Assembly (NCBI GenBank): GCA_902798205.1
Contig: CADBVV010000004.1
Coordinates: forward strand, 21,572 to 85,571
DNA: 64,000 nt
Origin: an uncultured Pseudomonadota bacterium
GTDB taxonomy: Bacteria > Pseudomonadota > Alphaproteobacteria > Rs-D84
Direction of reading: 5' to 3'
Shown: positions 8,219-44,188 of the stretch, piece by piece
Layout: each line of letters opens with the position of its first letter
Position numbering within the stretch: position 1 is the stretch's first letter
Notes under the pieces: model-generated
What the model saw: only the letters and a program-made list of their open reading frames with translations
Told to the model about the DNA's origin: nothing
Database searches by the model: none
Made by a program: the position numbers and the translations under genes

Positions 8219-9466
8219 ATGTACATACTTGCTTTGAATTGTGGTTCATCTTCCCTGAAATACCAGGTGTTTGATGCAGATACTAAAACAGCCATTGTTG
8301 GCGGAAATGTTGAAAAAATCGGTTTGGCTGATTCTTTTGTGACACAAAAATATCCAGACGGTCACAAAGATAAAAAAGTGACCGAAATGAAAGACCACAA
8401 AGAAGCATTAAGTGTTGTTATGCAAATGTTACGCGAAGCTTCTATTGATATGAACGAAATTGGTGGTGTTGGCCATCGTGTTGTTATGGGTGGTGATAAA
8501 TTTGCTTCTTCTGTCGAAGTCACAGATGAAGTTATTAAAACTTTGCGTGAATTGACACCATTGGCACCATTGCATAACCCAAGTGGTATTTTGGGCATTG
8601 TCACAGCACAACAATTGTTGCCAAACGCAAAACAGGTTGCTGTATTTGATACTGCGTTCCACCAAACAATGAAACCTGCATCTTACCGTTATCCTGTGCC
8701 AAAAGAATGGTACACAGAATTGGGTGTTCGCAGATACGGTTTCCATGGAACATCACATTTGTATGTTTCTAAACGCGCTGCGGCTATGTTGGGCAAACCT
8801 GCATCTGAATGCAATTTAATCACTGCGCACATTGGTTCTGGTGCATCTATCACAGCAATCAAAAACGGTGTTAGTGTAGATACATCTATGGGTATGACAC
8901 CAACCGCAGGATTGATGATGGGAACACGTTGTGGCGATATCGATCCATCTATTCCATCTTATGTTGCAGCACGTAAAGGTTTGTCTATTGAAACAGTTCA
9001 AAACGAATTGAATAAAAAATCTGGTTTGATGGGCGTAACAACATGCTACAGCGATGGTCGCGATGTCAAAGAAAACCAAGAATGCAATGATGATTGCAAA
9101 CTGGCATTGGAAATGCAGGCACAAACTGTGAAAAAATTCATCGGTGCATATATTGCAGAATTGGGACATGTTGATGCATTGGTTTTGACCGCTGGCGTTT
9201 GCGAAAACGATGAATACATGCGTGAAAAATTCTGCGAAGGATTGGAAGAATTGGGCATAAAAATGGACAAAGAAGCCAACAAAAACATCAGCCGCGATGT
9301 TCCAGAAGCAGTTTTAAGCACACCTGATTCCCGTATCAAAATCTTTAAGATTGCAACAAACGAAGAATTGGTCATCGTCGAAGATACATTGGCAATAATG
9401 AACGGCACATACAACGCCGACCATTTGAAAATGGCATATTCATTTGCACAACAAAAAGAAAGATAA
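8219..9466 (+). CDS. ackA: acetate kinase
   Basis: MYILALNCGSSSLKYQVF N-terminus and further acetate/propionate kinase motifs. ATG at 8219 with an AAAGG Shine-Dalgarno. The ORF-track N-terminal extension from 8027 is considered spurious. Confidence 0.85.
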   Translation: MYILALNCGSSSLKYQVFDADTKTAIVGGNVEKIGLADSFVTQKYPDGHKDKKVTEMKDHKEALSVVMQMLREASIDMNEIGGVGHRVVMGGDKFASSVEVTDEVIKTLRELTPLAPLHNPSGILGIVTAQQLLPNAKQVAVFDTAFHQTMKPASYRYPVPKEWYTELGVRRYGFHGTSHLYVSKRAAAMLGKPASECNLITAHIGSGASITAIKNGVSVDTSMGMTPTAGLMMGTRCGDIDPSIPSYVAARKGLSIETVQNELNKKSGLMGVTTCYSDGRDVKENQECNDDCKLALEMQAQTVKKFIGAYIAELGHVDALVLTAGVCENDEYMREKFCEGLEELGIKMDKEANKNISRDVPEAVLSTPDSRIKIFKIATNEELVIVEDTLAIMNGTYNADHLKMAYSFAQQKER

Positions 9467-15953: not shown

Positions 15954-15973
15954 TAATTGCAATACCATAAAAA

Positions 15974-16000
15974 CACCGCCCGTTTGGGCGGTATTTTTAT
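15974..16000. terminator. bidirectional intrinsic terminator (CCGCCC-GTTT-GGGCGG)
   Basis: GC stem plus T-run, between convergent genes. Confidence 0.6.
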
Positions 16001-16437
16001 TTAACGTATTGTTTTAAGAAATGAACTATTTTATTTTCTGTTTCTTTTCCCAAAGTTGGTTTTTCTTCTTTTTTCTTTGGGGTGTCATCAAGCAACTCTC
16101 CTTTTACATTTTTTGAAAATGGGTTTAACTTTCTTTTTATAAATTCTTTTCTGACATCATTATACAAAGATTCCACTTCTGAATCTAAAAATTCACCCCA
16201 CAAAGATTTATCACCTATTGTTATATCATAAGGATGAGAGCTTTCCTTGTTACCTTTTCTTATTCTCCATATACGTTTGCCTTGCTCGGAAACAAACGAA
16301 TAAGATATTACTTCACGAGTCGTCGAATACTCCCTTCTATCACGAACAGTTTTCTTTTCTATTGTGTATTCTGGGTCCTTTATCATTTTACGCAACATAT
16401 CCAATGTCGCGGTTCTGAACTTTTTACTGGCAGACAT
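15997..16437 (-). CDS. hypothetical protein (146 aa)
   Basis: ATG at 16437 with an AAAGGAG Shine-Dalgarno, product MSASKKFRTATLDML... The upstream part of the ORF-track call overlaps the rne terminator. Confidence 0.45.
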   Translation of the reverse strand: MSASKKFRTATLDMLRKMIKDPEYTIEKKTVRDRREYSTTREVISYSFVSEQGKRIWRIRKGNKESSHPYDITIGDKSLWGEFLDSEVESLYNDVRKEFIKRKLNPFSKNVKGELLDDTPKKKEEKPTLGKETENKIVHFLKQYVK

Positions 16438-28252: not shown

Positions 28253-28291
28253 AAAACACCGCCACTTTGGGCGGTATTTTAATTTATGGGG
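28253..28291. repeat. 39-bp direct repeat copy A (terminator hairpin CACCGCC-ACTTT-GGGCGGT plus TATTTTAATTTATGGGG)
   Basis: Exact 39-mer repeated at 28517..28555. Confidence 0.85.
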
Positions 28292-28379
28292 CGGGAGAAC
28301 CTTCCTCAATACACAATCTCCTATTCACGAAGTTTGTATGCTCGATTTTTAAACCTTGCTAACGCTGCGGTAAAAATCG

Positions 28380-28516: not shown

Positions 28517-28555
28517 AAATTAAAACACCGCCACTTTGGGCGGTATTTTAATTTA
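28517..28555. repeat. 39-bp direct repeat copy B
   Basis: Identical to 28253..28291. The two copies bracket the GC-rich tRNA-His-like fragment. Confidence 0.85.
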
Positions 28556-28656
28556 TGGGGCCCCGATTTTGACACAACACCACCAGATATTGTGCAGGAA
28601 ACCTTGGGGTTATCACATTTATTAACTGAAATTATGGACGAAATAGAAAAAACATA

Positions 28657-28685
28657 TTTACAACCTGACTTTGATACATTATAAT
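28657..28685 (+). promoter_or_regulatory. sigma70-like promoter (TTTACA-N17-TATAAT) upstream of hipB
   Basis: Near-consensus -35 and -10 hexamers with a 17-nt spacer, about 28 nt upstream of the hipB ATG. Confidence 0.4.
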
Positions 28686-28713
28686 ATAATATATTATCTA
28701 AAATGGATTAAAA

Positions 28714-28998
28714 ATGACAGAATTAGACAACATATTATCTATTAAACAAGGTATCGCTAAAAGATTGCATACAGCACGCAGAAACACCAAAATTTCACAG
28801 ATTGTTTTGGCACAGCGTTCTGGCGTTTCGCTTGGATCTATCAAACGTTTTGAAAGAACGGGTGAGATATCTTTGTCATCTTTACTAAAACTTGCGATGG
28901 TTTTGGGTTATGAATCTGATTTTAATACCCTGTTCACACGCAAGAATTATCAATCCATATTCGATGTAGTAAAAGACGGGGGCAACAATGCAAAATAA
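28714..28998 (+). CDS. hipB: HTH XRE-family antitoxin (HipB-like)
   Basis: HTH_XRE signature QIVLAQRSGVSLGSIKRFERTG. Overlaps the start of hipA by 11 nt. Confidence 0.7.
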   Translation: MTELDNILSIKQGIAKRLHTARRNTKISQIVLAQRSGVSLGSIKRFERTGEISLSSLLKLAMVLGYESDFNTLFTRKNYQSIFDVVKDGGNNAK

Positions 28999-30109
28999 AA
29001 TGTTAATCGTAAAATATCATGGTTCTATTGTTGGTCGTTTGGCATTAACACCTGATAATCTTATGGCTTTTGAATACGATGCCGGCTGGTTGGAAAACGG
29101 GTTCAGTATATCACCTTTCAAACTACCACTGGAAAAGAAAGTTTTTATTGCTAATCGCGACCCGTTTGATGGTGTATTTGGGGTATTTAACGATTGCTTG
29201 CCTGATAACTGGGGGAAATTATTGGTAAATCGTGAACTACAAAGACGTGGCATAGCACCAAACAGTATATCTGTCCTGGACAGATTAGCCATAGTTGGGA
29301 AAAATGGTCCTGGGGCCTTGGAATTTGAACCAAGTGAAGATTTTGCCCAAGAATACAAAGATTCTGATTTGGATACCATCGCCAACGAAATCAACAAAAT
29401 CATTGACGATGCAACTGTTATTACCGAAGATTCTGTTACCGAAGAATTATTCAGAATTGGTGGTTCGTCTGGTGGCACACGTCCAAAGATATTCCGTAAA
29501 TTCGAAGATGGCGATTGGATTATAAAGTTTCGTGCTGCCGTTGATCCTGCGGACATTGGCAAAAAGGAATTTGATATTATGGAATTGGCACAAAAAGCAG
29601 GTCTGGAAGCACCAGAACACAAATTATTCAATAACAAGTATTTTGGTGTAAAACGTTTTGACAGAAAACCAAATGGCGAAAAAGTGTTTATGATTTCTGC
29701 ATCGGGTTTATTAGATGCAGACCACAACCAACCTGTATTAGATTATACTGATTTGTTATCATTAACCGCAAAACTTACCCGTAATATGGTTGAAGTCGAA
29801 AAGATGTTCCGCCTTATGGTGTTTAACGTTTGGATAAACAACACAGACGACCATGCAAAGAACTTTGCATTTTTATATGATGGCAAAGATTGGAAATTAT
29901 CCCCTGCTTTCGACCTTACCCAGACAGTTGGGACATGGGAACACGCAACATCTGTAAATCACAAAGGCACAAATATAACCGGTGCAGACACACTGGCTGT
30001 GGCACATAAAATCGGTCTGACCGACAAACAAGCCGGCGATATTATGCTGGAAGTCAAAGATGCTATAGATCAATGGGATGAACAACATGGAACTAAAACC
30101 AAAAGATAG
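28988..30109 (+). CDS. hipA: HipA-family serine/threonine kinase toxin
   Basis: HipA N-terminal domain (LIVKYHGSIVGRL...), catalytic loop DDHAKNFAF and NVWINNTDDH. Confidence 0.8.
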   Translation: MQNKMLIVKYHGSIVGRLALTPDNLMAFEYDAGWLENGFSISPFKLPLEKKVFIANRDPFDGVFGVFNDCLPDNWGKLLVNRELQRRGIAPNSISVLDRLAIVGKNGPGALEFEPSEDFAQEYKDSDLDTIANEINKIIDDATVITEDSVTEELFRIGGSSGGTRPKIFRKFEDGDWIIKFRAAVDPADIGKKEFDIMELAQKAGLEAPEHKLFNNKYFGVKRFDRKPNGEKVFMISASGLLDADHNQPVLDYTDLLSLTAKLTRNMVEVEKMFRLMVFNVWINNTDDHAKNFAFLYDGKDWKLSPAFDLTQTVGTWEHATSVNHKGTNITGADTLAVAHKIGLTDKQAGDIMLEVKDAIDQWDEQHGTKTKR

Positions 30110-30719
30110 AGAAAAACTTAACCATCTTGTCTCTGAACTATTTAAAATGGCTTTAAGTGCCTATGTTGATTGCTTTATTTACCTGGAATCCCACCTCCGC
30201 AAAAACAATAGTTTTATTTTTATTTATAGTAGAAGTGCTATCCAAGAACGATTGATTATCGCAGTCAAAAAACTTATAGAACCTGCCAAATCTGATAAGC
30301 TCACAATGTTTTCTATAGGCAAAATTATCGAAAAACCAGATTTTTGTGATAGTTTACAAGACAAAAAAGGCATAAAATATATTTACACAGATAGATTAAA
30401 AGAAATTTTCAATTCGGTTCATGCTAAAAGATTAAAAGACATGAGAGATGCCTTCTGTCATAATTTTTGCGACGAAAAGAATGGGATACGTGGATATTGC
30501 AAAGATTTTATGATTGTTCTACAAGAATGTTTGAATATACTATCTGACGTTAAAGAACAAATACTGGATCAACCAGAAACAAGATTTCAACAAGTAAAAG
30601 ATTTAGCATTAAAAATATCCAAAGATTATTGGAATTGTGTGATATCTGGTGCAAAAAAATCTAAAATAACAGATAAAGATTTAAAAATGCTATCCTCTTT
30701 TATTGGCAACATGCTATAA
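30078..30719 (+). CDS. hypothetical alpha-helical protein with HEPN-like Rx4HN motif; third gene of the hipBA operon
   Basis: Overlaps the hipA 3' end by 32 nt. Contains RDAFCHNF (Rx4H followed by N). 213 aa. No other recognised domain. Confidence 0.35.
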   Translation: MNNMELKPKDREKLNHLVSELFKMALSAYVDCFIYLESHLRKNNSFIFIYSRSAIQERLIIAVKKLIEPAKSDKLTMFSIGKIIEKPDFCDSLQDKKGIKYIYTDRLKEIFNSVHAKRLKDMRDAFCHNFCDEKNGIRGYCKDFMIVLQECLNILSDVKEQILDQPETRFQQVKDLALKISKDYWNCVISGAKKSKITDKDLKMLSSFIGNML

Positions 30720-30720
30720 C

Positions 30721-31305
30721 CTAGATCTTTGCTAATTCGACAGCATTCATTAATTGTTGCGGATTATGGTTATAATATCTCTGAGTGGTCTGAATATTTC
30801 TGTGATTCACAAGTGTTTTTACTAAAAATGGATTTGTTCCGTTGTTAATCAATTTGGTTATAAACATGTGCCTGCCAAGATGCGAAGCCCCATGAATACC
30901 AAATTTGTTATAAATATCGTGAAATATTCTGCTGATTGATACCCTGTTAAAAGGTTTATTCATTTTCTGTGATGTAAACAAATAAGTATCAGGTTGCAAT
31001 TTATCACCATATTTCTTTTTCAAATATTCATGGTATACTTCAAATTCTTTCTTAAACTGTTTGTTAACATAATATTGAGCCGCGAATTTTCCCTTGTTTT
31101 TATCTTTACCCAAATCAATAACATTCTTAACAGACCCATCTGGGTTATATATGTCTTTTAATTGCAAATAAGCAAAATTAATACTTCTCATCCCATTGAT
31201 AGAACAAAAGAACATCATACGAAGCATGTCACCATGATTCAACCCTTTTATATAAGTCAAAATATCTTTGATCTGGCTGTCAGATATAAAATCGCCATTT
31301 ACCAT
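30721..31305 (-). CDS. tyrosine recombinase, catalytic domain only (194 aa; truncated or minimal integrase)
   Basis: Conserved Arg (INGMRS), HLGRH box and C-terminal TTQRYY with the nucleophile Tyr. The N-terminal core-binding domain is absent. Confidence 0.6.
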   Translation of the reverse strand: MVNGDFISDSQIKDILTYIKGLNHGDMLRMMFFCSINGMRSINFAYLQLKDIYNPDGSVKNVIDLGKDKNKGKFAAQYYVNKQFKKEFEVYHEYLKKKYGDKLQPDTYLFTSQKMNKPFNRVSISRIFHDIYNKFGIHGASHLGRHMFITKLINNGTNPFLVKTLVNHRNIQTTQRYYNHNPQQLMNAVELAKI

Positions 31306-31482
31306 AAAAACCCTTTTATAATGTTAAACTTTATGTATTATTTAAGTATATATTAACATTTTTATATTGTCAACAGATTCGATTTGCACAAAAAAGCCTA
31401 ATTTCAGCCTATTCCGTCAATAATGTTAAAGAATGATGCTTTTTTAACATTTTATTGCGTACTAAGCACAGAGTAATATATA

Positions 31483-32955
31483 TTAATACTCCAAATTCTC
31501 GTCAAAAACTTCTATTTCTTCTTGTCTGATAGGAAGAGCTAAATGTTTAATCAGACGAATATTAACAAGTTTGCAGGCCAACAACTCAGATCTAACATGT
31601 GGTTTCAACCATGAATTATTCCATAGATTTATATTATCATCAGATATTAATTTACATAATGTTGGTACATAATCCAAATTTTCTCCGCACGCTAAACTTA
31701 ATCGTTGTATCCATATATACACAAAATCTGTATATGCTTTTTTATCAAACTTATTTTTTATACATCTTATAAAGCCAAATCTATCAGATACCGACATACG
31801 TTTTAAAATTTTACTTATAATCGCAAAAGCTTGCGGAATAACTTTTGGATTATTAAAAGCTATATCAAGCATTATATTTAACAACAACTCAAGATCATCA
31901 TTCTTATTAAATCTAATTTTCTTATTTATTTTACCTATACATGTTTGTAAAACGCCAGAATTTTCGAATCTTTTAGCAAATTCGTATAACACAAGAAATA
32001 AATTCTGCTTATCTTGTCTATATTCTGGCCATATATAAAATTTTTCATTTCTTATTGATCCTGTTATAACATCCGATGTTAAACACGTTTTTTCTGAATT
32101 TAATTTTAACCCAAGATTTCTACAAATATCATTTATAAGCTTAATAATTAGTTCTGTATCTTTTATACTGTTTGTAAAAATTCTATAATCATCTCTGTAA
32201 CGTAAAATTTTGTAATCTGAAATATTATTTGCTTCGATTTTATTTGTAAGCAAAACATCTATATACCCAAATACAGTTTCTGCTATAAAATCCATAAGCA
32301 CAGACCCCTGAGGTATACCATTTGTTTGTCCATAGGATAAATTACTAAGCTTAGAATCTAAAACATTACCAAAATTCTCTTTTTTACCCCTATGCTGTTT
32401 TGCAAAATCCACCCCATAAAAAGCCCACGGTATCACATGTGTATATATAGACGAATAACAATCAGATATATCTGTACAAGCCATATATGCAAAAAACATT
32501 GATAATTTAGCAGACTCTTTTTCAAACTTACTTATCCAATTATTAATCTGACTTCCTTTTTGCTTTCTCTTATGTTCCGGAAGAACTGGTATACTAGAAA
32601 CACAAATATTTGGATTTTTTCTGAATTCTCTAAATTTATTTTGTAAAAACAACCAATTTTCTTCAGAACAAATACAATTCACTAAATCAACATACAATAT
32701 AGGGTTAACAGCCGTCAATTTACGCCAAGAATAATTGTTATTTTTATTTATAACTATATCATAATTTACATTTTCTATCTGACTAGGATTTTGGTTCTGT
32801 ATGTCTTTTAACTCCTTATCTTTTAACAAACCATCTGCCACATTCAAAATTTCTTGGAAAGAAAAATACTGTGGCAAATCCCCAGTGAAATAATTTTCAC
32901 TTTTCAAGAAGAATTTTTTTGCATCCTTTGCTGTTAAATCTAACACTGTTGCCAT
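31483..32955 (-). CDS. standalone reverse transcriptase, retron/Abi-like (defence-associated RT candidate)
   Basis: RT motifs: motif 1 TDISDCYSSI; motif 4 NGIPQGSVLMDFIAE; motif 5 ILRYRDDYRIF, a YxDD variant; motif 6/7 GLKLNSEKT. About 150-aa N-terminal and C-terminal extensions. No maturase or endonuclease domain. Confidence 0.75.
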   Translation of the reverse strand: MATVLDLTAKDAKKFFLKSENYFTGDLPQYFSFQEILNVADGLLKDKELKDIQNQNPSQIENVNYDIVINKNNNYSWRKLTAVNPILYVDLVNCICSEENWLFLQNKFREFRKNPNICVSSIPVLPEHKRKQKGSQINNWISKFEKESAKLSMFFAYMACTDISDCYSSIYTHVIPWAFYGVDFAKQHRGKKENFGNVLDSKLSNLSYGQTNGIPQGSVLMDFIAETVFGYIDVLLTNKIEANNISDYKILRYRDDYRIFTNSIKDTELIIKLINDICRNLGLKLNSEKTCLTSDVITGSIRNEKFYIWPEYRQDKQNLFLVLYEFAKRFENSGVLQTCIGKINKKIRFNKNDDLELLLNIMLDIAFNNPKVIPQAFAIISKILKRMSVSDRFGFIRCIKNKFDKKAYTDFVYIWIQRLSLACGENLDYVPTLCKLISDDNINLWNNSWLKPHVRSELLACKLVNIRLIKHLALPIRQEEIEVFDENLEY

Positions 32956-33165
32956 ATGATTTGTCCTAAACTGTAATAACTTTGATTAAGTATAGGTTAA
33001 AAATCCGAATTATCAAGCTCATCTTTCGATTTTTATATGTTATTTATGTTCCAAATATGTTTCATAATTCGAATACTTTATGGTATTCGTTGTTCAAATT
33101 TAAACTTTATATTTGAAAACCTTTAACAAACACTATATCATAAAGAAACAAAAGGTTTGTTTTAT

Positions 33166-35319
33166 ATGATGTTAAAAGAAATAGACAAGGCATTATTAAA
33201 AGCGGTATTAAAAAACGATTCAAACGAAGTGAAAAAGCTCATAAAAGCTGGTGCAAATATTACTTCAAGATTTGATGACGACGATACTTACTTGCATTGT
33301 GTAAAGAACAAAGAAATAGCAGAATTATTAATTAAAGCTGGGGCAGATGTAAACGCAAAAAACAAATCCGGCTTAACACCTTTGTATCGTGCGGAAAATT
33401 TAGAAATAGCAAAACTATTAATCAAACATGGTGCTGACATAAAAATAACCTTACCTAACGGTTATACTGTCCTACATGCAGCAATTTTTCTTAAAAAATT
33501 GGATCTTGCAAAACTTTTCATTGAATATGGTGTAGATGTTGATTCAAAAAGCGAAGAAGGGATAACCCCTTTACATTTGTCACCTACCCCTGAAGCAGCG
33601 GAATTATTAATAGAAAATAATGCAAACATGTATATAGGAGAAAACGTATTCAACACACCTCTTCATTATGCTATAAAAAACAATAACTACGATGTTGCAG
33701 AATTCTTAATAGATGCTGGTATTTGCAACAATAAACACCGAGAATTGTGCTATGATATTTTTCAAAAGACAATAGAATATAATAATATAAAAACATTAAA
33801 ATACTTGATAGAATATGGCATTACATCTGCAGAAACAAAATATACTGTGCCACTATTAAAGATTGCTCTACACTACAAAAATTATGAAATTTGCAATTTA
33901 TTAATTAATAATAATGCGTGTGTTAATTTCTGTGACAAAGAAGGACAAACACCTCTACACACAGCGATTATAATAAGAAACACCGAACTTGCAGAAAATT
34001 TGATAAAACACCATGCAAAAATCAACGCAAGTGACAAAACAGAAAAAACTCCTTTACATTATGCAGCCATAAATGATGACATAGAACTAATTTCACTTTT
34101 GATAAAATACGGAGCCAATATTAATGTCAAAGACAAAGACGGAAACACACCTCTACACTTTGTTAGAGACACAAAATCTGCACTGTGCTTAATTGAACAA
34201 GATGCAGATGTCAACGCAAAGAACAACGAAGGCATAACTCCTTTACATTGGGCAGATAGTGTTGAATTAGCAGATTTGTTAATTAAATATGGAGCAGATG
34301 TTAATGCCACAAACAACAATGGCGTTACACCTTTATACTGGGTAAAAGACTATGATTTAGCAAGGTTATTAATAAATAACGGTGCAGACGTTAATGCATC
34401 CAATAAAGACGGAGCAACCCCATTACATATACAGGACAACCCAAAAATAGCCGAACTATTAATAGAGAAAGGTGCAAATGTTACTGCAAAAATAAAAAAT
34501 GGTGATACTCCACTACATTGGATTGAAAACCCAGAAACAGCAGAGCTATTGATTAAACACGGGGCAGATGTTAAAGCTACAAATAATAATAATGTTACCC
34601 CTTTGCATTGGGCTGAAAACGCACAAATAGCAGAATTATTAGTAAAACACGGTGCCAACATTAATGCAAAAACATCTTTATCTAATTTTACTCCTCTGGA
34701 TTTAGCTATTAAAAACAGTCATTTTGATGTTGTAGATTTTTTAATAGAATGTAAAGCAACTATAAAAAGCCCTAAAAAACTACTTCTTTGGGCTTTAGAT
34801 AATAACAGAACAAACCTAGCACAAAAACTTCTTAAAAACAAATCTATTAAGAATACAAACTCAACTGGCGATACATTATTGCATACAGTACAAACTATTG
34901 ATGGGGTACATTTGTTAATATCAAACGGTATAGATATTAATACAAAAAACAAAAATGGTGCGACCCCATTACATTTAGCGAAAAAACTAGAAATAATAAA
35001 CACATTGATAGAAAACGGTGCAAAAATAGAATCAACCGACAATGAAGGTAAAACACCTTTGTTTTATTATATAATATTCTGTAAAAATGCGGAACGTGCT
35101 AGCTGTTTATTAAAATATGGAGCAAATGTTAATGCAAGAGACAGTGATGGTATGACACCCTTACATTTTGTGCGTTCTATAACGACAGCACAAATATTAA
35201 TTGATTATGGGGCCGACATTAATGCCATAGACAGTCACGGGAAAACGCCTTTATTTTATGCAAAGAAACGTAATAATTCTGCATTAGTTAGATATCTTAA
35301 ATCTATTGGGGCAAAATAA
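33166..35319 (+). CDS. ankyrin-repeat protein (about 20 ANK repeats, 717 aa)
   Basis: Repeated TPLH.A.......LLI..GADVNAKN consensus throughout. ATG at 33166 after AAAGG; the ORF-track start at 33157 is a TTG. Confidence 0.85.
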   Translation: MMLKEIDKALLKAVLKNDSNEVKKLIKAGANITSRFDDDDTYLHCVKNKEIAELLIKAGADVNAKNKSGLTPLYRAENLEIAKLLIKHGADIKITLPNGYTVLHAAIFLKKLDLAKLFIEYGVDVDSKSEEGITPLHLSPTPEAAELLIENNANMYIGENVFNTPLHYAIKNNNYDVAEFLIDAGICNNKHRELCYDIFQKTIEYNNIKTLKYLIEYGITSAETKYTVPLLKIALHYKNYEICNLLINNNACVNFCDKEGQTPLHTAIIIRNTELAENLIKHHAKINASDKTEKTPLHYAAINDDIELISLLIKYGANINVKDKDGNTPLHFVRDTKSALCLIEQDADVNAKNNEGITPLHWADSVELADLLIKYGADVNATNNNGVTPLYWVKDYDLARLLINNGADVNASNKDGATPLHIQDNPKIAELLIEKGANVTAKIKNGDTPLHWIENPETAELLIKHGADVKATNNNNVTPLHWAENAQIAELLVKHGANINAKTSLSNFTPLDLAIKNSHFDVVDFLIECKATIKSPKKLLLWALDNNRTNLAQKLLKNKSIKNTNSTGDTLLHTVQTIDGVHLLISNGIDINTKNKNGATPLHLAKKLEIINTLIENGAKIESTDNEGKTPLFYYIIFCKNAERASCLLKYGANVNARDSDGMTPLHFVRSITTAQILIDYGADINAIDSHGKTPLFYAKKRNNSALVRYLKSIGAK

Positions 35320-37882: not shown

Positions 37883-39316
37883 ATGTCTAAAATTGTAAGT
37901 AAAATAAATGCGTTAGGTATAGCAAGAGTGTCAACAAAAAGCCAATGTGATTCATTGGAATCACAAAAAAAAAGAATTTGTACATACTGTGATTCCCATA
38001 CGGAATTAGATTTAAAAAGAATAGAAAATTTAAAAGAATCCGCATATTGTTTAAAACCAGGTTTATTAGATGAAATACTTGGGGCCACTGTAAAAAATCA
38101 AGCCATTATATTGGACAAAGTGGATCGTTTAACCCGTAACCACAAAGACATACCTTTTTTTGAAAAATTAATAGATGAACGGAACATATCTTTTCATTTC
38201 ATACAAGAAAACATTGTTTGGGATCAAAATACAACAAGAGACCTGGTAACAAAAATTGTTGCATATATAAATAAGGCTGAAGAAGAATCCGACAGTACAT
38301 CCAAACGAACAAAAAATTGTAACATTATTATGCGAGAACACGGGAAGATAAGCACCCCTGCCCCTTTTGGTTATATTAATTATGCCGAAGGTGAAGAAAA
38401 AGGTTGGAAACCGCATAAAGTAAATTCAAAATACGTAAAAGAGCTGTTTGAAATGTATGCTACTGGCAATTACTCAATCAGAACCATCACAGAAATATTG
38501 AACAAGAAATATGGCAAATCTTTAAAAAAACCATTATCACATCAACATGCTGCAAGTTTGTTACACAACAAATTCTTTATTGGTATTGCCTGTCATGATG
38601 GTGTCGAATATAAACACATATATAAAACATTTATAACCAAAGAGATTTTTGATAAATGTCAGGTTATATTCAAACAGAATGAAAAATCAAAGAAAGATCC
38701 AAAAGTACTTATTTCACCACTTTATGGTATGGTACGAGACAAAAACACAGGTGCCTTATTCACTCCATACAGAAATAAATGTAAAAAACGTAATTATCTG
38801 AAGACAAAAGATTCAAACCTTGGCAATTTATCTGAACAAACCGTTATTAAAGGTATCAAAGAAGCATTAAAGAATTTAAACAAAGATAAAGATGTTGTCG
38901 ATATTTTATCAAATCAACTGAATATCGATGTCAAAGAAAACTTAGACTCTTTGACCCAAAAAGCTAAGAATGAAGCAGAAACAATAAACAAATTAGAAAA
39001 TAGATTAGTATCTATATTAACTGAAAATTTGAGTATGAGCGAAGAATATATGAACAAATCTATTCAAAATATTCATAAAAAAATAGAAACCCATAAATCT
39101 ATATTGAATAACTATACAGTAAACATCGAAAAGATTAAAAAAGATGTTATTGATGTAAAAGGTGATTTGTTCGAATTTTTCGGGACACTTAGCACACCAA
39201 ATCAAACCAAGATGTTGAAAATATTATTTTCTGAAATTCAGTATAACAATAACTGTTTTATATATAAATTCCAGAAACATATTAAACACAACTCTGTCAA
39301 TTATCAATTCAGATAA
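37883..39316 (+). CDS. large serine recombinase
   Basis: N-terminal resolvase catalytic domain (GIARVSTKSQ with the Ser nucleophile), recombinase domain and C-terminal coiled-coil. 477 aa. Confidence 0.8.
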   Translation: MSKIVSKINALGIARVSTKSQCDSLESQKKRICTYCDSHTELDLKRIENLKESAYCLKPGLLDEILGATVKNQAIILDKVDRLTRNHKDIPFFEKLIDERNISFHFIQENIVWDQNTTRDLVTKIVAYINKAEEESDSTSKRTKNCNIIMREHGKISTPAPFGYINYAEGEEKGWKPHKVNSKYVKELFEMYATGNYSIRTITEILNKKYGKSLKKPLSHQHAASLLHNKFFIGIACHDGVEYKHIYKTFITKEIFDKCQVIFKQNEKSKKDPKVLISPLYGMVRDKNTGALFTPYRNKCKKRNYLKTKDSNLGNLSEQTVIKGIKEALKNLNKDKDVVDILSNQLNIDVKENLDSLTQKAKNEAETINKLENRLVSILTENLSMSEEYMNKSIQNIHKKIETHKSILNNYTVNIEKIKKDVIDVKGDLFEFFGTLSTPNQTKMLKILFSEIQYNNNCFIYKFQKHIKHNSVNYQFR

Positions 39317-39385
39317 GTATATTTTGTAATATGGGTTGCTTTTGGATTGCAAACATTCCAAACTCTATACAGAAAGGGGTTTGGA

Positions 39386-40846
39386 ATGAAAGCGATTCTC
39401 TTAGCCAGAGTTAGCAGCAAAGAACAAGAAGAAGGCCATAGTTTAGTTGCTCAACTTGACCGTTTGCATGCTTATTGTGAACGTAAAAATTTAGATATTA
39501 TCCAAGAATTTACTCTGGTTGAAAGTTCTACCAGAGGCGAAAGACCAGAGTTCCAAAAAATGATCGCTTATATTAAAAAGCAACATGAAAAAGTAGCCCT
39601 GGTATGTGATAAGGTTGACCGTTTACAGAGATCCTTTAGAGAGGTTCCTGTCCTTGAACAATTACATAAATCCGAAAAATTAGTCCTGCATTTTGTAAGT
39701 GAAAACCAAATACTTGATTCTGGGGCCAACAATTCGCAAATTATGGCCTATCAAATATTTGTTATGATGGCTGAAAATTACACCAACTGTATCAGCGATA
39801 ACGTAAAACGTTCTTTTGAGAAAAAGATTAAAGAAGGCAGTATTTTAACCTTTGCACCCATAGGGTATTTAAACGTCACCATAGATGGTGTAAATACCGT
39901 TATAATAGATCCTATCCGTGGTCCAAAAGTTCGCATGTTATTTGAAAAATATGCCACCGGAACAGTATCCATACACCAGCTTGCCCGATATGCTGTTGAA
40001 ATCGGTCTGTTATCAAAGAAGAACACACAAATATCCCCACAACAAATTCACTTTATCATAGCCAACCCATTCTACTATGGCATGATGAGAATCAAAGGCA
40101 AACTGTACCAGCATTCATACAAAACACTTATAACTAAAGACATGTTTGACCTATGTGCAAATATAAGGACAGGACGAAACACAAATGTTTGCAAAAGAAA
40201 GAATCCTGATATGTTATTGGCTGGTTTAGTCAGGTGTCCACTTTGTGGCAAAGCATATTCCCCATATTTAGCCAAAAATAAATATATTTTCCTGCACCAG
40301 CCACGTGATAAAAACTGTGTACACCATCACTTGTCTGCAAAACCTATCCTGAAACAAATAAACGATGTTTTACAAGCATTACACTTTAAACCAGAACACA
40401 AAGAAAGCATTCTTGCTAACCTAGAAAAGAAGAAAACAGAAGCAATCATCAAACGAGACGAATACATAGCCAGACTTTATGAAGATCGAACTAAATTAAT
40501 AGCCAAGAAAAGTAGATTAACCGACCTGTATTTAGATCGTGGTATAGATAGAGAAGAATACGATAAAATCACCAATCAAATAAGTAATGAACAACAAGAT
40601 TTACAACTGAAAATTGATGGTTTAGACGACAGAATTTCCGCTTTTTATGACAATCTTATCAAATGTGTAAAAATCGCAGATATCAGCCATTTTTTGTTAA
40701 AAAGTTCGAACTTTCACAAAAAACAGCTTATTTTAAAATTGATAAGTTCGAACTTTTTTATAGACGATAAAAATCCAGTAATTTCAATAAGATACCCCTT
40801 TGAAAACATGCTTCAAAGGGGTTATCGTCAAGACTGGGGCGGGTGA
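39386..40846 (+). CDS. large serine recombinase (second, tandem); 3' end overlaps tRNA-His 3' end
   Basis: AILLARVSSKEQ catalytic motif. Zinc ribbon RCPLCGK...C.HHH. The stop codon lies within the tRNA-His acceptor-stem sequence. Confidence 0.8.
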   Translation: MKAILLARVSSKEQEEGHSLVAQLDRLHAYCERKNLDIIQEFTLVESSTRGERPEFQKMIAYIKKQHEKVALVCDKVDRLQRSFREVPVLEQLHKSEKLVLHFVSENQILDSGANNSQIMAYQIFVMMAENYTNCISDNVKRSFEKKIKEGSILTFAPIGYLNVTIDGVNTVIIDPIRGPKVRMLFEKYATGTVSIHQLARYAVEIGLLSKKNTQISPQQIHFIIANPFYYGMMRIKGKLYQHSYKTLITKDMFDLCANIRTGRNTNVCKRKNPDMLLAGLVRCPLCGKAYSPYLAKNKYIFLHQPRDKNCVHHHLSAKPILKQINDVLQALHFKPEHKESILANLEKKKTEAIIKRDEYIARLYEDRTKLIAKKSRLTDLYLDRGIDREEYDKITNQISNEQQDLQLKIDGLDDRISAFYDNLIKCVKIADISHFLLKSSNFHKKQLILKLISSNFFIDDKNPVISIRYPFENMLQRGYRQDWGG

Positions 40847-40912
40847 CCAGATTCGAACTGGCGACATTCGGTACCACAAACCGACGCTCTAACCAACTGA
40901 GCTACACCCGCC
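40835..40912 (-). tRNA. tRNA-His (anticodon GUG) with G-1 and encoded CCA
   Basis: GGCGGGTG-TA-GCTCAGTTGGTTAGAGC-G-TCGGT-TTGTGGT-ACCGA-ATGTC-GCCAG-TTCGAAT-CTGGT-CACCCGC-C-CCA. The cloverleaf folds, with an extra 5' G pairing with the discriminator C73. Confidence 0.9.
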
Positions 40913-40932
40913 ATAACTTTTGGGTAAAAACT

Positions 40933-41008
40933 TGGTGGAGCTGATCAGACTCGAACTGACGACCCCTTGCATGCCATGCAAGTGCTCTACCAACTGAGCT
41001 ACAACCCC
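40933..41008 (-). tRNA. tRNA-Ala (anticodon GGC) with G3:U70 identity pair
   Basis: GGGGTTG-TA-GCTCAGTTGGTAGAGC-A-CTTGC-ATGGCAT-GCAAG-GGGTC-GTCAG-TTCGAGT-CTGAT-CAGCTCC-A-CCA. Confidence 0.9.
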
Positions 41009-41095
41009 ATGCGGAAACTTATTCTATATTTCTTCTTGCAAAAAGTCAAATCATTTTGCTAACCTTTCTTTATCGAATATACCAAGGAGTAAAAT

Positions 41096-41656
41096 ATGGA
41101 TTATTCAGCACTGAAAACCGAAGTCGAACAAAAAACAGCTCAAACATTGGAAGTCTTACAAAATGAATTCGCCGGATTGCGCACTGGTCGTGCATCTGTG
41201 CATTTATTAGACGGCATAAAAGTACCTGTATATGGTGCAGAAATGCCATTAAATCAGGTTGCAACTGTATCAACACCAGACACACAAACATTATCTGTGA
41301 CGGTTTGGGATATCGCCAATGCACCGGCTGTTGAAAAAGCGATTCGTGATTCAGGTTTGGGATTGAACCCAATGACTGCTGGTGGTGTTATCCGCTTGAA
41401 TTTGCCACCATTAACCGAAGAACGTCGTCGTGAATTGACCAAAGTTGCCGGAAAATACGCCGAAGAAGCAAAAATTTCTATGCGTAACATTCGCCAAGAT
41501 GCAATGGGCAAAATCAAACGCGCTGTGACTGACAAAGAAATTTCCGAAGACGATCAACGCAAATACGAAGAAGATATTCAAAAAGTTTTTGATGGACGCA
41601 GCAACGAAGTTGATGCAATGGCAAAACAAAAAGAAGCCGACATTATGTCTGTTTAA
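41096..41656 (+). CDS. frr: ribosome recycling factor
   Basis: 186 aa with the typical RRF sequence (ISVTVWD..., RLNLPPLTEERRREL). AAGGAG Shine-Dalgarno. Confidence 0.9.
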   Translation: MDYSALKTEVEQKTAQTLEVLQNEFAGLRTGRASVHLLDGIKVPVYGAEMPLNQVATVSTPDTQTLSVTVWDIANAPAVEKAIRDSGLGLNPMTAGGVIRLNLPPLTEERRRELTKVAGKYAEEAKISMRNIRQDAMGKIKRAVTDKEISEDDQRKYEEDIQKVFDGRSNEVDAMAKQKEADIMSV

Positions 41657-41674
41657 TTACAAAAGGGATATGTA

Positions 41675-42430
41675 ATGTTTAATCTTTTCAAGAAAAAAGC
41701 CATTAAATCAGAAACATCAAAAAAGATACCGCAACATATCGCGTTCATTTGCGATGGCAATCGCAGATGGGCAGAAAACCGCGGTTTACCACCATTGATG
41801 GGACATCGCGCAGGCATTTCTAATTTTGAAAACCTGGTTGATTGGTTTGTTGCACATGGTGTTTCAACAATTACTTTTTATATCTTTTCAACTGAAAATT
41901 GGAATCGCAGCAAAGAAGAAGTCGATTTCCTTATGGATTTATTTTACACAGAATTAAATAAAAACATGAAACATGCGATTGAAAAAAATCTTCGTTATCG
42001 TGTTGTCGGTTCGCGTGAAAAATTACCAAAAAAGCTCGCAAAACTTTGTGATAAATTGGAAGAAGTATCAAAAGAAAACACAGGTGGAACTGTCGTATTC
42101 GCGCTTAATTACGGTGGCCAAGATGAAATTATTCGCGCTGTAAATGCTGCGATTGAAAATGGCGAACCTGTGGACAAAGATACTTTTGAAACATTTATGG
42201 ATACTGGCGATTTATTGCCTGTCGATTTGATGGTTCGCACCAGTAACGAAAACAGAATTTCTAATTTCTTGCTTTGGAAATTGGCATATGCGGAATTGTT
42301 ATTTATCCCAGAACATTGGCCTGATTTGGTAAAATCTGAAAAATTGTGGCAACATGTTTTGGATGAATATCAAAAACGTGATCGTCGTTTTGGTGGCGGA
42401 AAAAAGAAAAATTATTCGGGGAAGAAATAA
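41675..42430 (+). CDS. uppS: undecaprenyl pyrophosphate synthase
   Basis: HIAFICDGNRRWA motif and conserved cis-prenyltransferase regions. Confidence 0.9.
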   Translation: MFNLFKKKAIKSETSKKIPQHIAFICDGNRRWAENRGLPPLMGHRAGISNFENLVDWFVAHGVSTITFYIFSTENWNRSKEEVDFLMDLFYTELNKNMKHAIEKNLRYRVVGSREKLPKKLAKLCDKLEEVSKENTGGTVVFALNYGGQDEIIRAVNAAIENGEPVDKDTFETFMDTGDLLPVDLMVRTSNENRISNFLLWKLAYAELLFIPEHWPDLVKSEKLWQHVLDEYQKRDRRFGGGKKKNYSGKK

Positions 42431-42431
42431 A

Positions 42432-43103
42432 ATGAAATTATCTGAATTATCTAATACTTCATTAAGAATATTATCATCAATCGCAATGTTTGTTATATTG
42501 GGATTGGTGGTTGCATTGGAACATTATTTACCACAAATACATGCTGTGCGTTGGTTGGGTGTTTTAATTGTGATTGGTGCAATGTATGAAACTTTGAAAT
42601 GTTTTAAAAACACAGAACACGAAACATTTAACAAACACGCACCCTATTTCATTGCATTTTTTGCGTGGTTAATTTTGACATTGGTTTCTGTATATTTCGT
42701 TGGCGCACGCGCATGGATTATGTTGTGGTTGTTAATGATTATTGTTGGTGCTGATGTTGGCGGATGGTTATTCGGAAAACTTTTTGGTGGCGACAAAATG
42801 TGGGAAAGATTATCAGAACATAAAACTTGGTCTGGTCAAATCGGTGGCATTTTATGTGGGACTTTGATGTCTGTTATATTCTTTCTTTATTTCAAACCAT
42901 TTGGTAACGATGCAATGTTTGCGGTATTATTGGGTATCACAATTTCATTACTTTCACAATATGGTGATTTAACCGCCAGTTATATCAAAAGATGTTTGGG
43001 CATCAAAGATTTTGGTAATTTGTTGCCTGGTCATGGTGGTATATTGGACAGATTTGACGGATGGATTTACGTATTGCCATTTATATGGTTCTTTATAAGA
43101 TAG
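42432..43103 (+). CDS. cdsA: phosphatidate cytidylyltransferase
   Basis: ATG at 42432 directly after the uppS stop. Multi-TM protein with the C-terminal CdsA signature LLPGHGGILDRFDG. Confidence 0.8.
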   Translation: MKLSELSNTSLRILSSIAMFVILGLVVALEHYLPQIHAVRWLGVLIVIGAMYETLKCFKNTEHETFNKHAPYFIAFFAWLILTLVSVYFVGARAWIMLWLLMIIVGADVGGWLFGKLFGGDKMWERLSEHKTWSGQIGGILCGTLMSVIFFLYFKPFGNDAMFAVLLGITISLLSQYGDLTASYIKRCLGIKDFGNLLPGHGGILDRFDGWIYVLPFIWFFIR

Positions 43104-43117
43104 GGAGAAAATAAACT

Positions 43118-44176
43118 ATGCACACTATTTTAACAATTGTTGCATTATTAATCGTTTTGGGCGTTGTTGTTTTTGTTCACGAAGCCGGTCATTTTATGGC
43201 TGCGCGTTGGGCGGGTGTGCGCGTTGATGCTTTTTCTATTGGGTTTGGACCTGCAATTATCAAATGGCATGATAAACAAAATACTGTTTGGAAATTATGT
43301 TGTTTGCCATTGGGTGGTTATGTTTCCATCTATGGCCAAGAAGATATGTTTAACCGTAAAAAATATGCCGCATTACCAAAGGCCAAAAAAGTCGGACATT
43401 ATTTGTCAGTTCCTGCATGGAAACAATTCATAATTATCGCCGCCGGTGTGTTTATGAATTTCATGTTGGCATGGGGAATATATTCTGCTGATTTTATGTT
43501 CAGACCACGTAACATTCAATTGCCTGTTATTGGCCAGGTTGTACGTGACAGTGTCGCATTCAAAGCCGGCGTTAAACCAGGCGATGTTATCATGAAAATT
43601 GACGGTGCAAATGTTGAAAATTGGGGCGAATTGATTATTGCCAAAGAATTGGCCGACAAACATGATGCAAACCTGTTGATTGCCCGCAAAGACAAATTAA
43701 TCAAAGTGACTTTGGCACCGGCAGAACGTTGGGGCCTTATCGCAGACGGCAGCAAAACGATGTTCCGCAAGAAGGGTTTCTTTGGTTCTATATATTCAGG
43801 ATTGCGTGAAACATATCATCAATCAAAAACATTGCTGGTTGTGTTAAAACAAATAATAACAGGTGAACGTTCTTCGAAACAATTGGGTTCTTTCATAACA
43901 ATCGCTCAGGTTTCTGGACACGCATTGGAAGCAGGATTTTTCATATTCCTTTCCATCATCGCGTTGATTTCTGTGAATTTGGGTGTTATCAATTTATTAC
44001 CCCTGCCCGTGCTGGACGGCGGATATTTATTAATATTAATTATTGAAGCAATTACACGCAAAAAATTGGGTGGCAAAGCAATGGAAATAACTATTGTTAT
44101 TGGTTGGATTTTAATCCTGTTGTTGTTTGCTTTCACAATGTGGAACGATATCGCACGTGTATTTGGATTAAATTAA
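43118..44176 (+). CDS. rseP: RIP site-2 zinc metalloprotease RseP
   Basis: HEAGHF (HExxH) motif in TM1, PDZ domain and C-terminal LDGG. AGGGAG Shine-Dalgarno. Confidence 0.85.
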   Translation: MHTILTIVALLIVLGVVVFVHEAGHFMAARWAGVRVDAFSIGFGPAIIKWHDKQNTVWKLCCLPLGGYVSIYGQEDMFNRKKYAALPKAKKVGHYLSVPAWKQFIIIAAGVFMNFMLAWGIYSADFMFRPRNIQLPVIGQVVRDSVAFKAGVKPGDVIMKIDGANVENWGELIIAKELADKHDANLLIARKDKLIKVTLAPAERWGLIADGSKTMFRKKGFFGSIYSGLRETYHQSKTLLVVLKQIITGERSSKQLGSFITIAQVSGHALEAGFFIFLSIIALISVNLGVINLLPLPVLDGGYLLILIIEAITRKKLGGKAMEITIVIGWILILLLFAFTMWNDIARVFGLN

Positions 44177-44188
44177 AAGGGAAACAAA

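What the first reader, a model, noticed from the sequence alone, without database searches (positions are those of the whole stretch)
28714..30719. HipB-HipA module followed by an overlapping third gene with an HEPN-like Rx4HN motif
hipB (HTH) and a compact hipA (373 aa, catalytic DDHAKN loop intact) are followed by a 213-aa ORF that overlaps hipA by 32 nt, suggesting translational coupling. Its RDAFCHNF sequence fits the HEPN RNase Rx4-6H signature. A three-gene HipBA-HEPN arrangement differs from both classical HipBA and HipBST, and could be a two-toxin or kinase-regulated RNase module.
Basis: inference. Interest (0 to 1): 0.55.

Follow-up and report, generated by a model that had tools for sequence, protein, structure and literature searches.

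The report
HipBA toxin operon with hitch-hiking HEPN-like gene
A standard two-gene toxin-antitoxin pair (hipBA) is followed by a rare, unannotated gene that is probably an AbiU2-type HEPN RNase, but this gene is swappable island cargo in a variable slot behind hipA, not a fixed third part of a new three-gene system.

Summary
Homologues favour the second ATG (30087). That gives a 210-aa protein and a 23-nt overlap with hipA.

ORF3 belongs to a very rare, unnamed family. R and H of an R-[D/N/H]-x3-H motif are two of only six invariant columns. Family members hit Pfam HEPN_AbiU2 just below threshold (best 25.7 vs 26.8 bits, E 9e-6). A confident AlphaFold model puts the motif at the end of a helix, as in HEPN domains. 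Foldseek found no significant solved match.

The proposed HipBA-HEPN system is not obligate:
- All six distinct contexts examined of the same hipBA (76-88% HipA identity) lack ORF3. They carry other genes there, or none, including a tightly coupled RelA/SpoT-like defence candidate (PDC-S33).
- ORF3 homologues at 51-76% identity sit without hipBA next to integrases, restriction-modification genes and helicases.
- The HipA tree does not track ORF3 presence.
- ORF3 has the base composition of the island, a ~10.7-kb insert between hipA and tRNA-His.

ORF3 is most likely an autonomous abortive-infection RNase that borrows the hipBA promoter. Modest interest.

The parts
28657..28685 (+). Sigma-70-like promoter candidate (TTTACA-17-TATAAT) just upstream of hipB. 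It is the likely promoter for hipB-hipA-ORF3.
   Evidence: 11 of 12 consensus matches, joint best in the 5-kb scan. This is a consensus match only. No comparable site and no terminator lies between hipA and ORF3.
28714..28998 (+). hipB-like HTH antitoxin/repressor gene (94 aa). It overlaps hipA by 11 nt.
   Evidence: HTH_3, E 3.2e-6; couple_hipB, below threshold. A 94-aa orthologue precedes hipA in every related locus.
28988..30109 (+). hipA Ser/Thr kinase toxin gene (373 aa) with its own N-terminal subdomain. The last ~8 codons read into ORF3 because an upstream stop present in relatives has been lost.
   Evidence: HipA_C 156.8 bits, Couple_hipA 66 bits. (GGSSGG, DDHAKN, FDL motifs). (core most like HipT(Lp), E 5e-14). 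(3' end comparison).
30087..30719 (+). ORF3: a 210-aa member of a rare unnamed family, predicted to be an AbiU2-like HEPN RNase. The alternative start at 30078 gives 213 aa.
   Evidence: family; 19 representatives in 1.84 billion proteins. (HEPN_AbiU2 hits; best 25.7 bits, E 9e-6, in P0022). (invariant E65, S110, R120, H125). (AF2 pLDDT 87.7, all-alpha).
30444..30461 (+). Codons for RDAFCH, the conserved R-[D/N/H]-x3-H motif and putative RNase active site.
   Evidence: In the AF2 model the motif sits at the C-terminal end of helix 111-125, followed by a loop. This matches the HEPN description in PMC3710099.
30083..40834 (.). A ~10.7-kb variable island inserted between hipA and tRNA-His relative to a related genome (L027). 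ORF3 is its first gene.
   Evidence: L027 matches window 28688-30082 and then jumps to 40834-44177. ORF3 GC is 0.297 and other island genes mostly 0.28-0.32 (up to 0.355), against 0.395 for hipA and 0.36-0.42 for the flanking core genes.
30721..31305 (-). A 194-aa tyrosine recombinase (catalytic domain only), convergent with ORF3 with the two stop codons 1 nt apart.
   Evidence: Phage_integrase, E 1.2e-18; found only in loci that have both hipBA and ORF3; mosaic relationships with ORF3.
31483..32955 (-). AbiP2-type defence reverse transcriptase, which marks the region as a defence island.
   Evidence: PADLOC AbiP2, E 4.7e-164, full length. (RVT_1).
37883..40846 (+). Two tandem large serine recombinases at the right edge of the island, abutting the tRNA-His 3' end.
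   Evidence: Resolvase + Recombinase domains in both. (tRNA-His 40835-40911, minus strand).

Best explanation
hipB-hipA is an ordinary type II HipBA toxin-antitoxin module. An HTH repressor/antitoxin is paired with a Ser/Thr kinase toxin that, in characterised relatives, phosphorylates an aminoacyl-tRNA synthetase.

ORF3 is a separate, horizontally acquired gene and the first gene of a ~10.7-kb defence island wedged between hipA and tRNA-His. It encodes a divergent AbiU2-like HEPN protein. By inference it is a latent, metal-independent RNase using R120/H125 (210-aa numbering). By analogy with other HEPN enzymes it probably acts as a dimer. On phage infection it would cleave RNA and abort the infection.

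ORF3 has no promoter or terminator of its own between it and hipA, and it abuts or overlaps the hipA stop. It is therefore most likely transcribed from the hipB promoter and translated by coupling to hipA. I read this as expression hitch-hiking, not as functional dependence on the kinase.

The position directly behind hipA is a recombination-prone slot. In close relatives it holds different cargo or nothing.

Shown here: the gene models, the domain assignments, the conservation, the island boundaries and the lability of the association. Inferred: RNase activity, the trigger, co-transcription and autonomy.
For: HipBA identity.

ORF3 is a real conserved gene. There are 19 clusters of 208-222 aa with no frameshifts.

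HEPN assignment:
- R and H are invariant, with D, N or H after R in all 24 sequences.
- 9 of 19 close members plus P0020 (E 1.8e-4), P0022 (E 9.1e-6, covering model positions 25-175 of 193) and P0026 hit HEPN_AbiU2. Secondary hits go to other HEPN models: Apea, Cthe2314 and MAE_28990.
- The AF2 model has pLDDT 87.7 and pTM 0.84. The motif lies at the end of helix 111-125 before a loop. Invariant E65 lies at the end of the preceding long helix. This matches the HEPN topology described in PMC3710099.

Autonomy and cargo status:
- ORF3 homologues without the hipBA upstream: L014 (76% identity; integrase-ORF3-SNF2/DUF4391), L015-18, L009/10 and L011.
- Same hipBA without ORF3: L020 (HTH + M78 peptidase), L021, L023/24 (RelA_SpoT gene = PADLOC PDC-S33, E 2e-91, with a TAATG stop/start overlap with hipA), L025 (prophage), L027 (tRNA-His and frr follow directly) and L028.
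- The HipA tree interleaves ORF3-linked and unlinked loci. For example, L001 and L021 HipA are 94.9% identical.
- Mosaicism: in L001 versus L013 the recombinase is 97% identical but ORF3 only 60%.
- ORF3 GC is 0.297 against 0.395 for hipA.
- The insertion is mapped by comparison with L027.

Operon reading: a strong promoter-like site lies only upstream of hipB, with no terminator between hipA and ORF3. The junction ranges from -23 to +12 nt in all linked loci.
Against: No HEPN profile reaches Pfam's gathering score. The window protein scores 15.5 bits (E 0.013) against a cutoff of 26.8.

The hipBA-ORF3 linkage recurs in two deep ORF3 clades, covering five clusters. It always has tight coupling. 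This is more persistent than a random juxtaposition would suggest.

A second tightly coupled effector-like gene (PDC-S33) occupies the same slot, and ORF3 in L009 lies 1.2 kb from an unrelated hipBA. Both observations leave room for a functional link.

No expression or activity data exist.
Confidence: 0.58

Rival explanations
1. This is a functionally integrated three-component module. HipA kinase controls the downstream effector, either by holding the HEPN RNase inactive through phosphorylation or by activating it. Alternatively, HipB/HipA and ORF3 act as a two-toxin system under one antitoxin/repressor.
For: - Tight stop/start coupling is conserved in five ORF3 clusters spanning 57-100% identity, in two deep clades.
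- A different effector-like gene (RelA_SpoT / PDC-S33) is also translationally coupled to the same hipA in L023/24.
- An invariant Ser (S110) sits at the N-cap of the helix that carries the motif.
- An ORF3 homologue lies near an unrelated hipBA in L009.
- HipA-family kinases have been validated in phage defence (HipAD/DS-6, PMC13092281).
Against: - ORF3 at 76% identity occurs with no kinase nearby (L014), as do three other lineages.
- All six distinct contexts examined of the same hipBA lack ORF3, and some have no third gene at all (L025, L027, L028).
- HipA phylogeny does not track ORF3 presence.
- S110 is equally invariant in the unlinked homologues.
- ORF3 has the composition of the island, not of hipBA.
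Confidence: 0.12
2. ORF3 is a helical protein that is not a nuclease. It could be a regulatory or binding protein of the island, for example a recombination directionality or immunity factor working with the adjacent tyrosine recombinases. On this reading the conserved R/H serve structure or ligand binding.
For: - No solved HEPN structure was recovered by Foldseek.
- All HEPN profile hits are below the gathering score.
- ORF3 is almost always next to a tyrosine recombinase gene: rec194 in hipBA-linked loci, and a 392-aa integrase in L014-L018.
Against: - The only invariant polar residues form exactly the HEPN signature: an acidic residue on the preceding helix, plus R-[D/N/H]-x3-H at the end of a helix.
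- The best Pfam hit across the family is consistently a HEPN Abi model, with other HEPN models second.
- In L009, L011 and L019 no recombinase is adjacent.
Confidence: 0.15
3. ORF3, the 65-aa ORF and rec194 together form a small integrative cassette whose attachment site is the 3' end of hipA. The association with hipBA would then reflect target-site choice by the recombinase rather than any shared function.
For: - rec194 is found only in loci that have both hipBA and ORF3.
- Homology between hipBA loci breaks within a few nt of the hipA stop.
- Content beyond rec194 differs in every lineage.
- rec194 keeps the R, H-x-x-R, H and Y catalytic residues (read directly from the sequence).
Against: - No flanking direct repeats or att-like duplication were found around 30083-31450.
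- ORF3 and rec194 are mosaic relative to each other. This argues against movement as one unit.
- L019 has the hipA 3' end plus ORF3 but no rec194 within 6 kb.
Confidence: 0.12

Closest known systems
AbiU2 family of HEPN domains (Pfam PF18734; Lactococcus AbiU locus; Anantharaman et al. 2013, PMC3710099)
   Same: Single-domain, ~200-aa, all-helical protein. It has a conserved R-x4-6-H with a polar residue after R and an upstream conserved acidic residue. It is found in defence islands next to restriction-modification and other Abi genes. It is the best and recurrent profile hit of the ORF3 family.
   Different: No member reaches the Pfam gathering score. The family is very rare and restricted to gut Alphaproteobacteria-like MAGs and metagenomes. 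The C-terminal half with the conserved DYW motif, and the placement behind hipA, are not described for AbiU2.
Classical HipBA (E. coli K-12 / Caulobacter) as classified by Gerdes et al. 2021 (PMC8262856)
   Same: [quoted passage not shown]
   Different: The kinase is compact (358-373 aa against ~440). Its core is closer in sequence to HipT(Lp) than to E. coli HipA. None of the 10 gene organisations listed in that survey includes a downstream HEPN gene.
HipBST tripartite system
   Same: Three co-directional, tightly packed genes that include an HTH protein and a Hip kinase.
   Different: In HipBST the third protein (HipS) is the split-off N-terminal subdomain, lies upstream of the kinase and acts as the antitoxin. 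Here HipA keeps its N-terminal domain, and the third gene is downstream, unrelated to HipS and dispensable.
HEPN-MNT toxin-antitoxin modules
   Same: A HEPN RNase toxin sits in a small operon where a partner enzyme neutralises it by covalent modification. This is the conceptual model for a kinase-regulated RNase (from established knowledge).
   Different: No nucleotidyltransferase partner is present. ORF3 occurs without any modifying enzyme in several contexts.
PDC-S33 (PADLOC single-gene defence candidate, RelA/SpoT-like)
   Same: It occupies the same slot, translationally coupled to the same hipA, in L023/L024. This shows that the slot accepts stand-alone defence genes.
   Different: Unrelated fold and chemistry (nucleotide pyrophosphokinase against a predicted RNase).

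Membership tests
HipBA type II toxin-antitoxin | HipA_C kinase core plus N-terminal HipA subdomain, both above the curated thresholds | tested here: met
   HipA_C 156.8 bits (cutoff 30.5); Couple_hipA 66 bits (cutoff 22.5).
HipBA type II toxin-antitoxin | HTH (Xre/Cro-type) HipB gene immediately upstream in the same operon | tested here: met
   94-aa HTH_3 protein with an 11-nt overlap with hipA. It is conserved in all related loci.
HipBA type II toxin-antitoxin | Intact kinase motifs (Gly-rich loop, catalytic D-x-H-x-x-N, Mg-binding D) | tested here: met
   GGSSGG at residue 158, DDHAKN at 287, FDL at 308; alignment to HipT(Lp).
HipBA type II toxin-antitoxin | Kinase toxicity neutralised by HipB, with autoregulation of the promoter | not testable with these tools
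   Only a promoter-like site upstream of hipB was seen.
HEPN superfamily / AbiU2 family | Conserved R-x4-6-H with a polar residue (N/D/H) directly after R | tested here: met
   R120 and H125 are invariant in 24 sequences down to 24% identity, and the residue after R is D, N or H in all of them.
HEPN superfamily / AbiU2 family | Motif at the end of core helix 3 and the start of the loop to helix 4; conserved acidic residue on helix 2 | tested here: met
   (AF2, pLDDT 87.7): helix 111-125 ends at H125, followed by loop 126-137. Invariant E65 lies at the end of helix 43-63. The criterion comes from PMC3710099. This rests on a predicted structure, and side-chain distances could not be measured.
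HEPN superfamily / AbiU2 family | Profile match to a HEPN family model at or above the curated threshold | tested here: inconclusive
   The window protein scores 15.5 bits (E 0.013) against a cutoff of 26.8. The best family member, P0022, scores 25.7 bits (E 9.1e-6) over model positions 25-175 of 193. 9 of 19 close members give weak hits. The signal is significant by E-value but below the gathering score.
HEPN superfamily / AbiU2 family | Structural similarity to a solved HEPN domain | tested here: inconclusive
HEPN superfamily / AbiU2 family | Metal-independent RNase activity dependent on R and H | not testable with these tools
   Needs biochemistry.
   All six distinct contexts examined of the same hipBA lack ORF3. 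Four of nine ORF3 clusters with known context lack the hipBA upstream. The HipA tree is interleaved.
HipBST | Kinase lacking the N-terminal subdomain plus a separate HipS antitoxin | tested here: not met
   HipA retains Couple_hipA (residues 6-113). ORF3 has no HipS/HipA_N similarity.
HEPN-MNT toxin-antitoxin | Adjacent minimal nucleotidyltransferase partner | tested here: not met
   no nucleotidyltransferase domain in the neighbouring genes.

The most novel reading that the evidence does not exclude
The compact HipBA of these gut Alphaproteobacteria may be a modular sensor/gate with an exchangeable effector slot. Whatever sits directly behind hipA (the AbiU2-like HEPN RNase here, a RelA/SpoT-like PDC-S33 enzyme in L023/24) would be translationally coupled to the kinase and controlled by it. 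Control could work through phosphorylation of the invariant Ser at the N-cap of the helix that carries the active site. That would make this a kinase-gated RNase, analogous to MNT-AMPylated HEPN toxins.
Probability: 0.07. Interest if true: 0.75.

Novelty: new member of a known kind. Interest (0 to 1): 0.3.

Why it matters
If the reading is right, the practical gain is modest. It names a rare, so far unannotated protein family as a divergent AbiU2-type HEPN candidate. It also shows that the 3' end of a conserved hipBA operon serves as a slot where stand-alone defence genes are swapped and expressed by read-through. This is a useful caution: tight overlap with a toxin gene does not by itself define a new multi-gene system. 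The slot could also be mined for new defence genes in poorly studied gut Alphaproteobacteria. Only the low-probability kinase-gated-effector reading would change how HipA systems are understood.

Tried and rejected
- Foldseek against the PDB (both AF2 models) and against BFVD viral structures (first model only): no hit below E 0.1.
- Profile search of the PDB by sequence with A1: no hits.
- hhalign of the family profile against the single AbiU2-like protein of L009: E 0.23. Only the N-terminal Y-x-D ... KLxE region aligned. The protein comparison failed.
- PADLOC, NCBIfam and PHROGs: no hit for ORF3 or its distant relatives, apart from a weak Csx1 hit for P0024 (E 0.009) and a weak E2 hit for P0025 (E 0.012).
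- tblastn against plasmids and phages, and scans of IMG/VR: no relatives.
- A profile search with the extended alignment added only one new cluster.
- Search for att-type direct repeats between the tRNA-His end and the hipA/ORF3/rec194 region: none of 12 nt or longer.
- Inverted repeats that might mark an invertible segment for the small recombinase: only weak, chance-level pairs.
- Rfam on the repeat-flanked segment upstream of hipB: nothing.
- I considered that the 219-aa ORF in L024 was an ORF3 homologue. blastp rejected this.
- I considered HipS-like and MNT-like roles for ORF3. Both were rejected on domain content.
Full report
**Observation.** The three ORFs are exactly as described.
- hipB-like HTH: 28714-28998, 94 aa.
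- HipA: 28988-30109, 373 aa.
- ORF3: 30078-30719, 213 aa, overlapping hipA by 32 nt, with RDAFCHNF at residues 123-130.

Pfam confirms HTH_3 for the first protein and Couple_hipA plus HipA_C, far above threshold, for the second. The Gly-rich loop, DDHAKN and FDL motifs are intact. Most homologues of ORF3 begin at the Met that corresponds to the second ATG at 30087. The likely product is therefore 210 aa and the overlap 23 nt. R-x4-H is not improbable on its own, since the protein has a second, unconserved instance at residues 11-16.

**What ORF3 is.** ORF3 is a real gene of a very rare family.
- The first search found 19 clusters of 208-222 aa at 51-100% identity.
- A profile search of 1.84 billion representatives found only 19 proteins at E <= 0.001.
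- None carries a name other than "hypothetical protein".
- Genome hits are MAGs of Candidatus Enterousia and an unclassified alphaproteobacterium from gut samples.

In a 24-sequence alignment reaching 24% identity, only six columns are invariant: E65, S110, R120, H125, L152 and W182 (210-aa numbering). The residue after R is always D, N or H. This is the HEPN signature as defined by Anantharaman et al. 2013: R-x4-6-H, a polar residue after R, and an upstream acidic residue (PMC3710099).

The window protein hits only HEPN_AbiU2, weakly (E 0.013). However, 9 of 19 close members hit the same model. Among the distant members, P0022 reaches 25.7 bits (cutoff 26.8; E 9.1e-6) over model positions 25-175 of 193. 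P0020 hits AbiU2, HEPN_Apea and HEPN_Cthe2314 across the motif region.

AlphaFold2 with the wider alignment gives a confident all-helical model (pLDDT 87.7, pTM 0.84).
- R120 to H125 end helix 111-125 and are followed by a loop.
- E65 ends the long second helix.
- A helical insert lies between them.

This is the topology described for HEPN.

**Is it part of a three-gene system?** The arrangement hipB-hipA-ORF3 recurs in five ORF3 clusters: the window/L007/L008, L013, L001-L006, L012 and L019, the last with only the hipA 3' end on the contig. The junction is always tight, from -23 to +12 nt. In L001 a TAA stop lies 1 nt before the ORF3 ATG. In the window and L013 that stop is lost, so hipA simply reads on into ORF3. 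The overlap is therefore a small accident at a tight junction.

Both partners also occur alone.
- ORF3 homologues without the hipBA upstream:
  - L014 (76% identical): between an integrase and an SNF2/DUF4391 pair.
  - L015-18 (68%): after an integrase and a 320-aa gene.
  - L009/L010 (60%): beside a second AbiU2-like gene.
  - L011 (51%): between a Fic gene and a restriction-modification system.
- All six distinct contexts examined of the same hipBA (HipA 76-88% identical, same 94-aa HipB) lack ORF3, with no remnant. What follows hipA in each is:
  - L020: an HTH plus M78 peptidase pair.
  - L021: an 88-aa ORF.
  - L023/24: a RelA/SpoT-like gene whose ATG overlaps the hipA stop (TAATG) and which matches the PADLOC single-gene candidate PDC-S33 at E 2e-91.
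  - L025: a prophage.
  - L027: tRNA-His and frr directly.
  - L028: an MFS transporter gene.

In a HipA tree, each ORF3-linked kinase has a nearest neighbour that lacks ORF3. For example, L001 and L021 are 94.9% identical. The region is also mosaic. In L001 versus L013 the recombinase is 97% identical but ORF3 only 60%. In the window versus L013, ORF3 is 82% identical and the recombinase 66%.

**Island context.**
- Compared with the related MAG contig L027, homology runs through hipBA to window position 30082 and resumes at 40834, at tRNA-His, tRNA-Ala and frr-uppS-cdsA-rseP-bamA.
- The intervening ~10.7 kb starts with ORF3. It also contains a 194-aa tyrosine recombinase, an AbiP2-type defence reverse transcriptase (E 4.7e-164), a 720-aa ankyrin-repeat protein, two unknown genes and two large serine recombinases abutting the tRNA-His 3' end.
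- ORF3 has a GC content of 0.297, like most other island genes (0.28-0.32, up to 0.355). hipA has 0.395 and the core genes 0.36-0.42.

**Mechanism.** The best-supported reading is as follows.
- HipBA is a self-contained toxin-antitoxin module.
- ORF3 is autonomous island cargo: a latent HEPN RNase of the abortive-infection type that uses R120/H125.
- ORF3 is expressed by read-through from the hipB promoter. A strong sigma-70-like site lies at 28657-28685, with no terminator and no comparable promoter before ORF3.
- ORF3 is probably translated by coupling to hipA.

The gene models, domains, conservation, boundaries and lability are shown. RNase activity, the trigger and co-transcription are inferred.

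The main rival is that HipA gates the downstream effector. Three things keep it alive: the recurrence of tight coupling in two deep ORF3 clades, the second coupled effector-like gene (PDC-S33) in the same slot, and the invariant Ser110 next to the active-site helix. The independent occurrence of both partners argues against it, and I put it near 0.1. HipA-family kinases are by now validated defence components in another pairing (HipAD/DS-6, PMC13092281). A defence role for this hipBA is therefore plausible on its own.

**Comparison with known systems.**
- The survey of Hip kinase operons lists ten organisations, none with a downstream HEPN gene (PMC8262856).
- This is not HipBST, because the kinase keeps its N-terminal subdomain.
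- It is not HEPN-MNT, because no nucleotidyltransferase is present.
- AbiU2 is the closest family for ORF3. Its reported contexts, restriction-modification operons and other Abi genes, resemble those seen here.

**Verdict.** The HEPN idea is probably right. The three-gene-system idea is not supported as an obligate unit. This is a new, divergent member of a known kind sitting in a variable defence slot behind a conventional hipBA.

Noticed in passing
window 30721-31305 (- strand): A 194-aa tyrosine recombinase with only the catalytic domain (R, H-x-x-R, H and Y present). It is convergent with ORF3. Among all fetched loci it occurs only where hipBA and ORF3 are both present. It is mosaic relative to ORF3: 97% against 60% identity between L001 and L013. 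Its role (cassette exchange, inversion or remnant) is unknown.
   Followed up: partly
L023 6086-7198 and L024 6086-7198: A 370-aa RelA/SpoT-domain gene matches PADLOC PDC-S33 (E 2e-91). It starts inside the stop codon of the same hipA (TAATG). It is a second, unrelated effector-like gene translationally coupled to this hipBA.
   Followed up: partly
window 31483-32955 (- strand): A full-length AbiP2-type defence-associated reverse transcriptase (PADLOC E 4.7e-164) lies directly beyond the small recombinase.
   Followed up: partly
window 28253-28292 and 28522-28561 (third copy 15969-16003): A perfect 40-nt direct repeat contains a terminator-like hairpin (ACCGCCACTTTGGGCGGT plus a T-run). The two copies flank a 229-nt segment between the flavodoxin gene and hipB. 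There is no Rfam match. It may be a small inserted element or a duplicated terminator.
   Followed up: partly
L001 5375-5572, L013 2312-2512, L019 827-1030, L012 ~1498-1680, L011 ~6541-6732 (all - strand): A conserved ~65-aa ORF (MQNKNPYDMHYKHRKDT...DQWGIKHW) lies tail-to-tail with ORF3, overlapping its 3' end, in several loci. It also lies near the hipBA-less ORF3 of L011. In the window it and a 44-aa ORF are missing, through a 434-nt indel relative to L013. There is no Pfam hit.
   Followed up: partly
window 37883-39316 and 39347-40846, with tRNA-His at 40835-40911 (- strand): Two tandem large serine recombinases sit at the right end of the ~10.7-kb insert. The second ORF overlaps the 3' end of tRNA-His. 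No att duplication was found at the left end.
   Followed up: partly
L027 ~6100-6460: In the related genome that lacks the island, the 300 nt between hipA and tRNA-His contain a duplicated ~75-nt block. It ends in the first ~19 nt of the tRNA-His 3' end (TGGGGCGGGTGACCAGATT). This looks like an att scar from an excised or decayed element.
   Followed up: no
window 33157-35319: A 720-aa ankyrin-repeat protein inside the island has long runs of 90-nt-period repeats (12 copies detected). This is unusual cargo for a bacterial defence island.
   Followed up: no
L009 8001-11291: In a Candidatus Enterousia MAG, the ORF3 homologue is followed by a second, different AbiU2-like gene (8678-9310; Pfam E 2.7e-5). 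About 1.2 kb downstream of the ORF3 homologue lies an unrelated hipBA with a 418-aa HipA.
   Followed up: partly
protein P0024 (distant ORF3 relative): The database lists a precomputed Pfam accession, PF27216.1, for this protein. That model is not in the local Pfam copy, which returned no hit, so its identity could not be checked.
   Followed up: no
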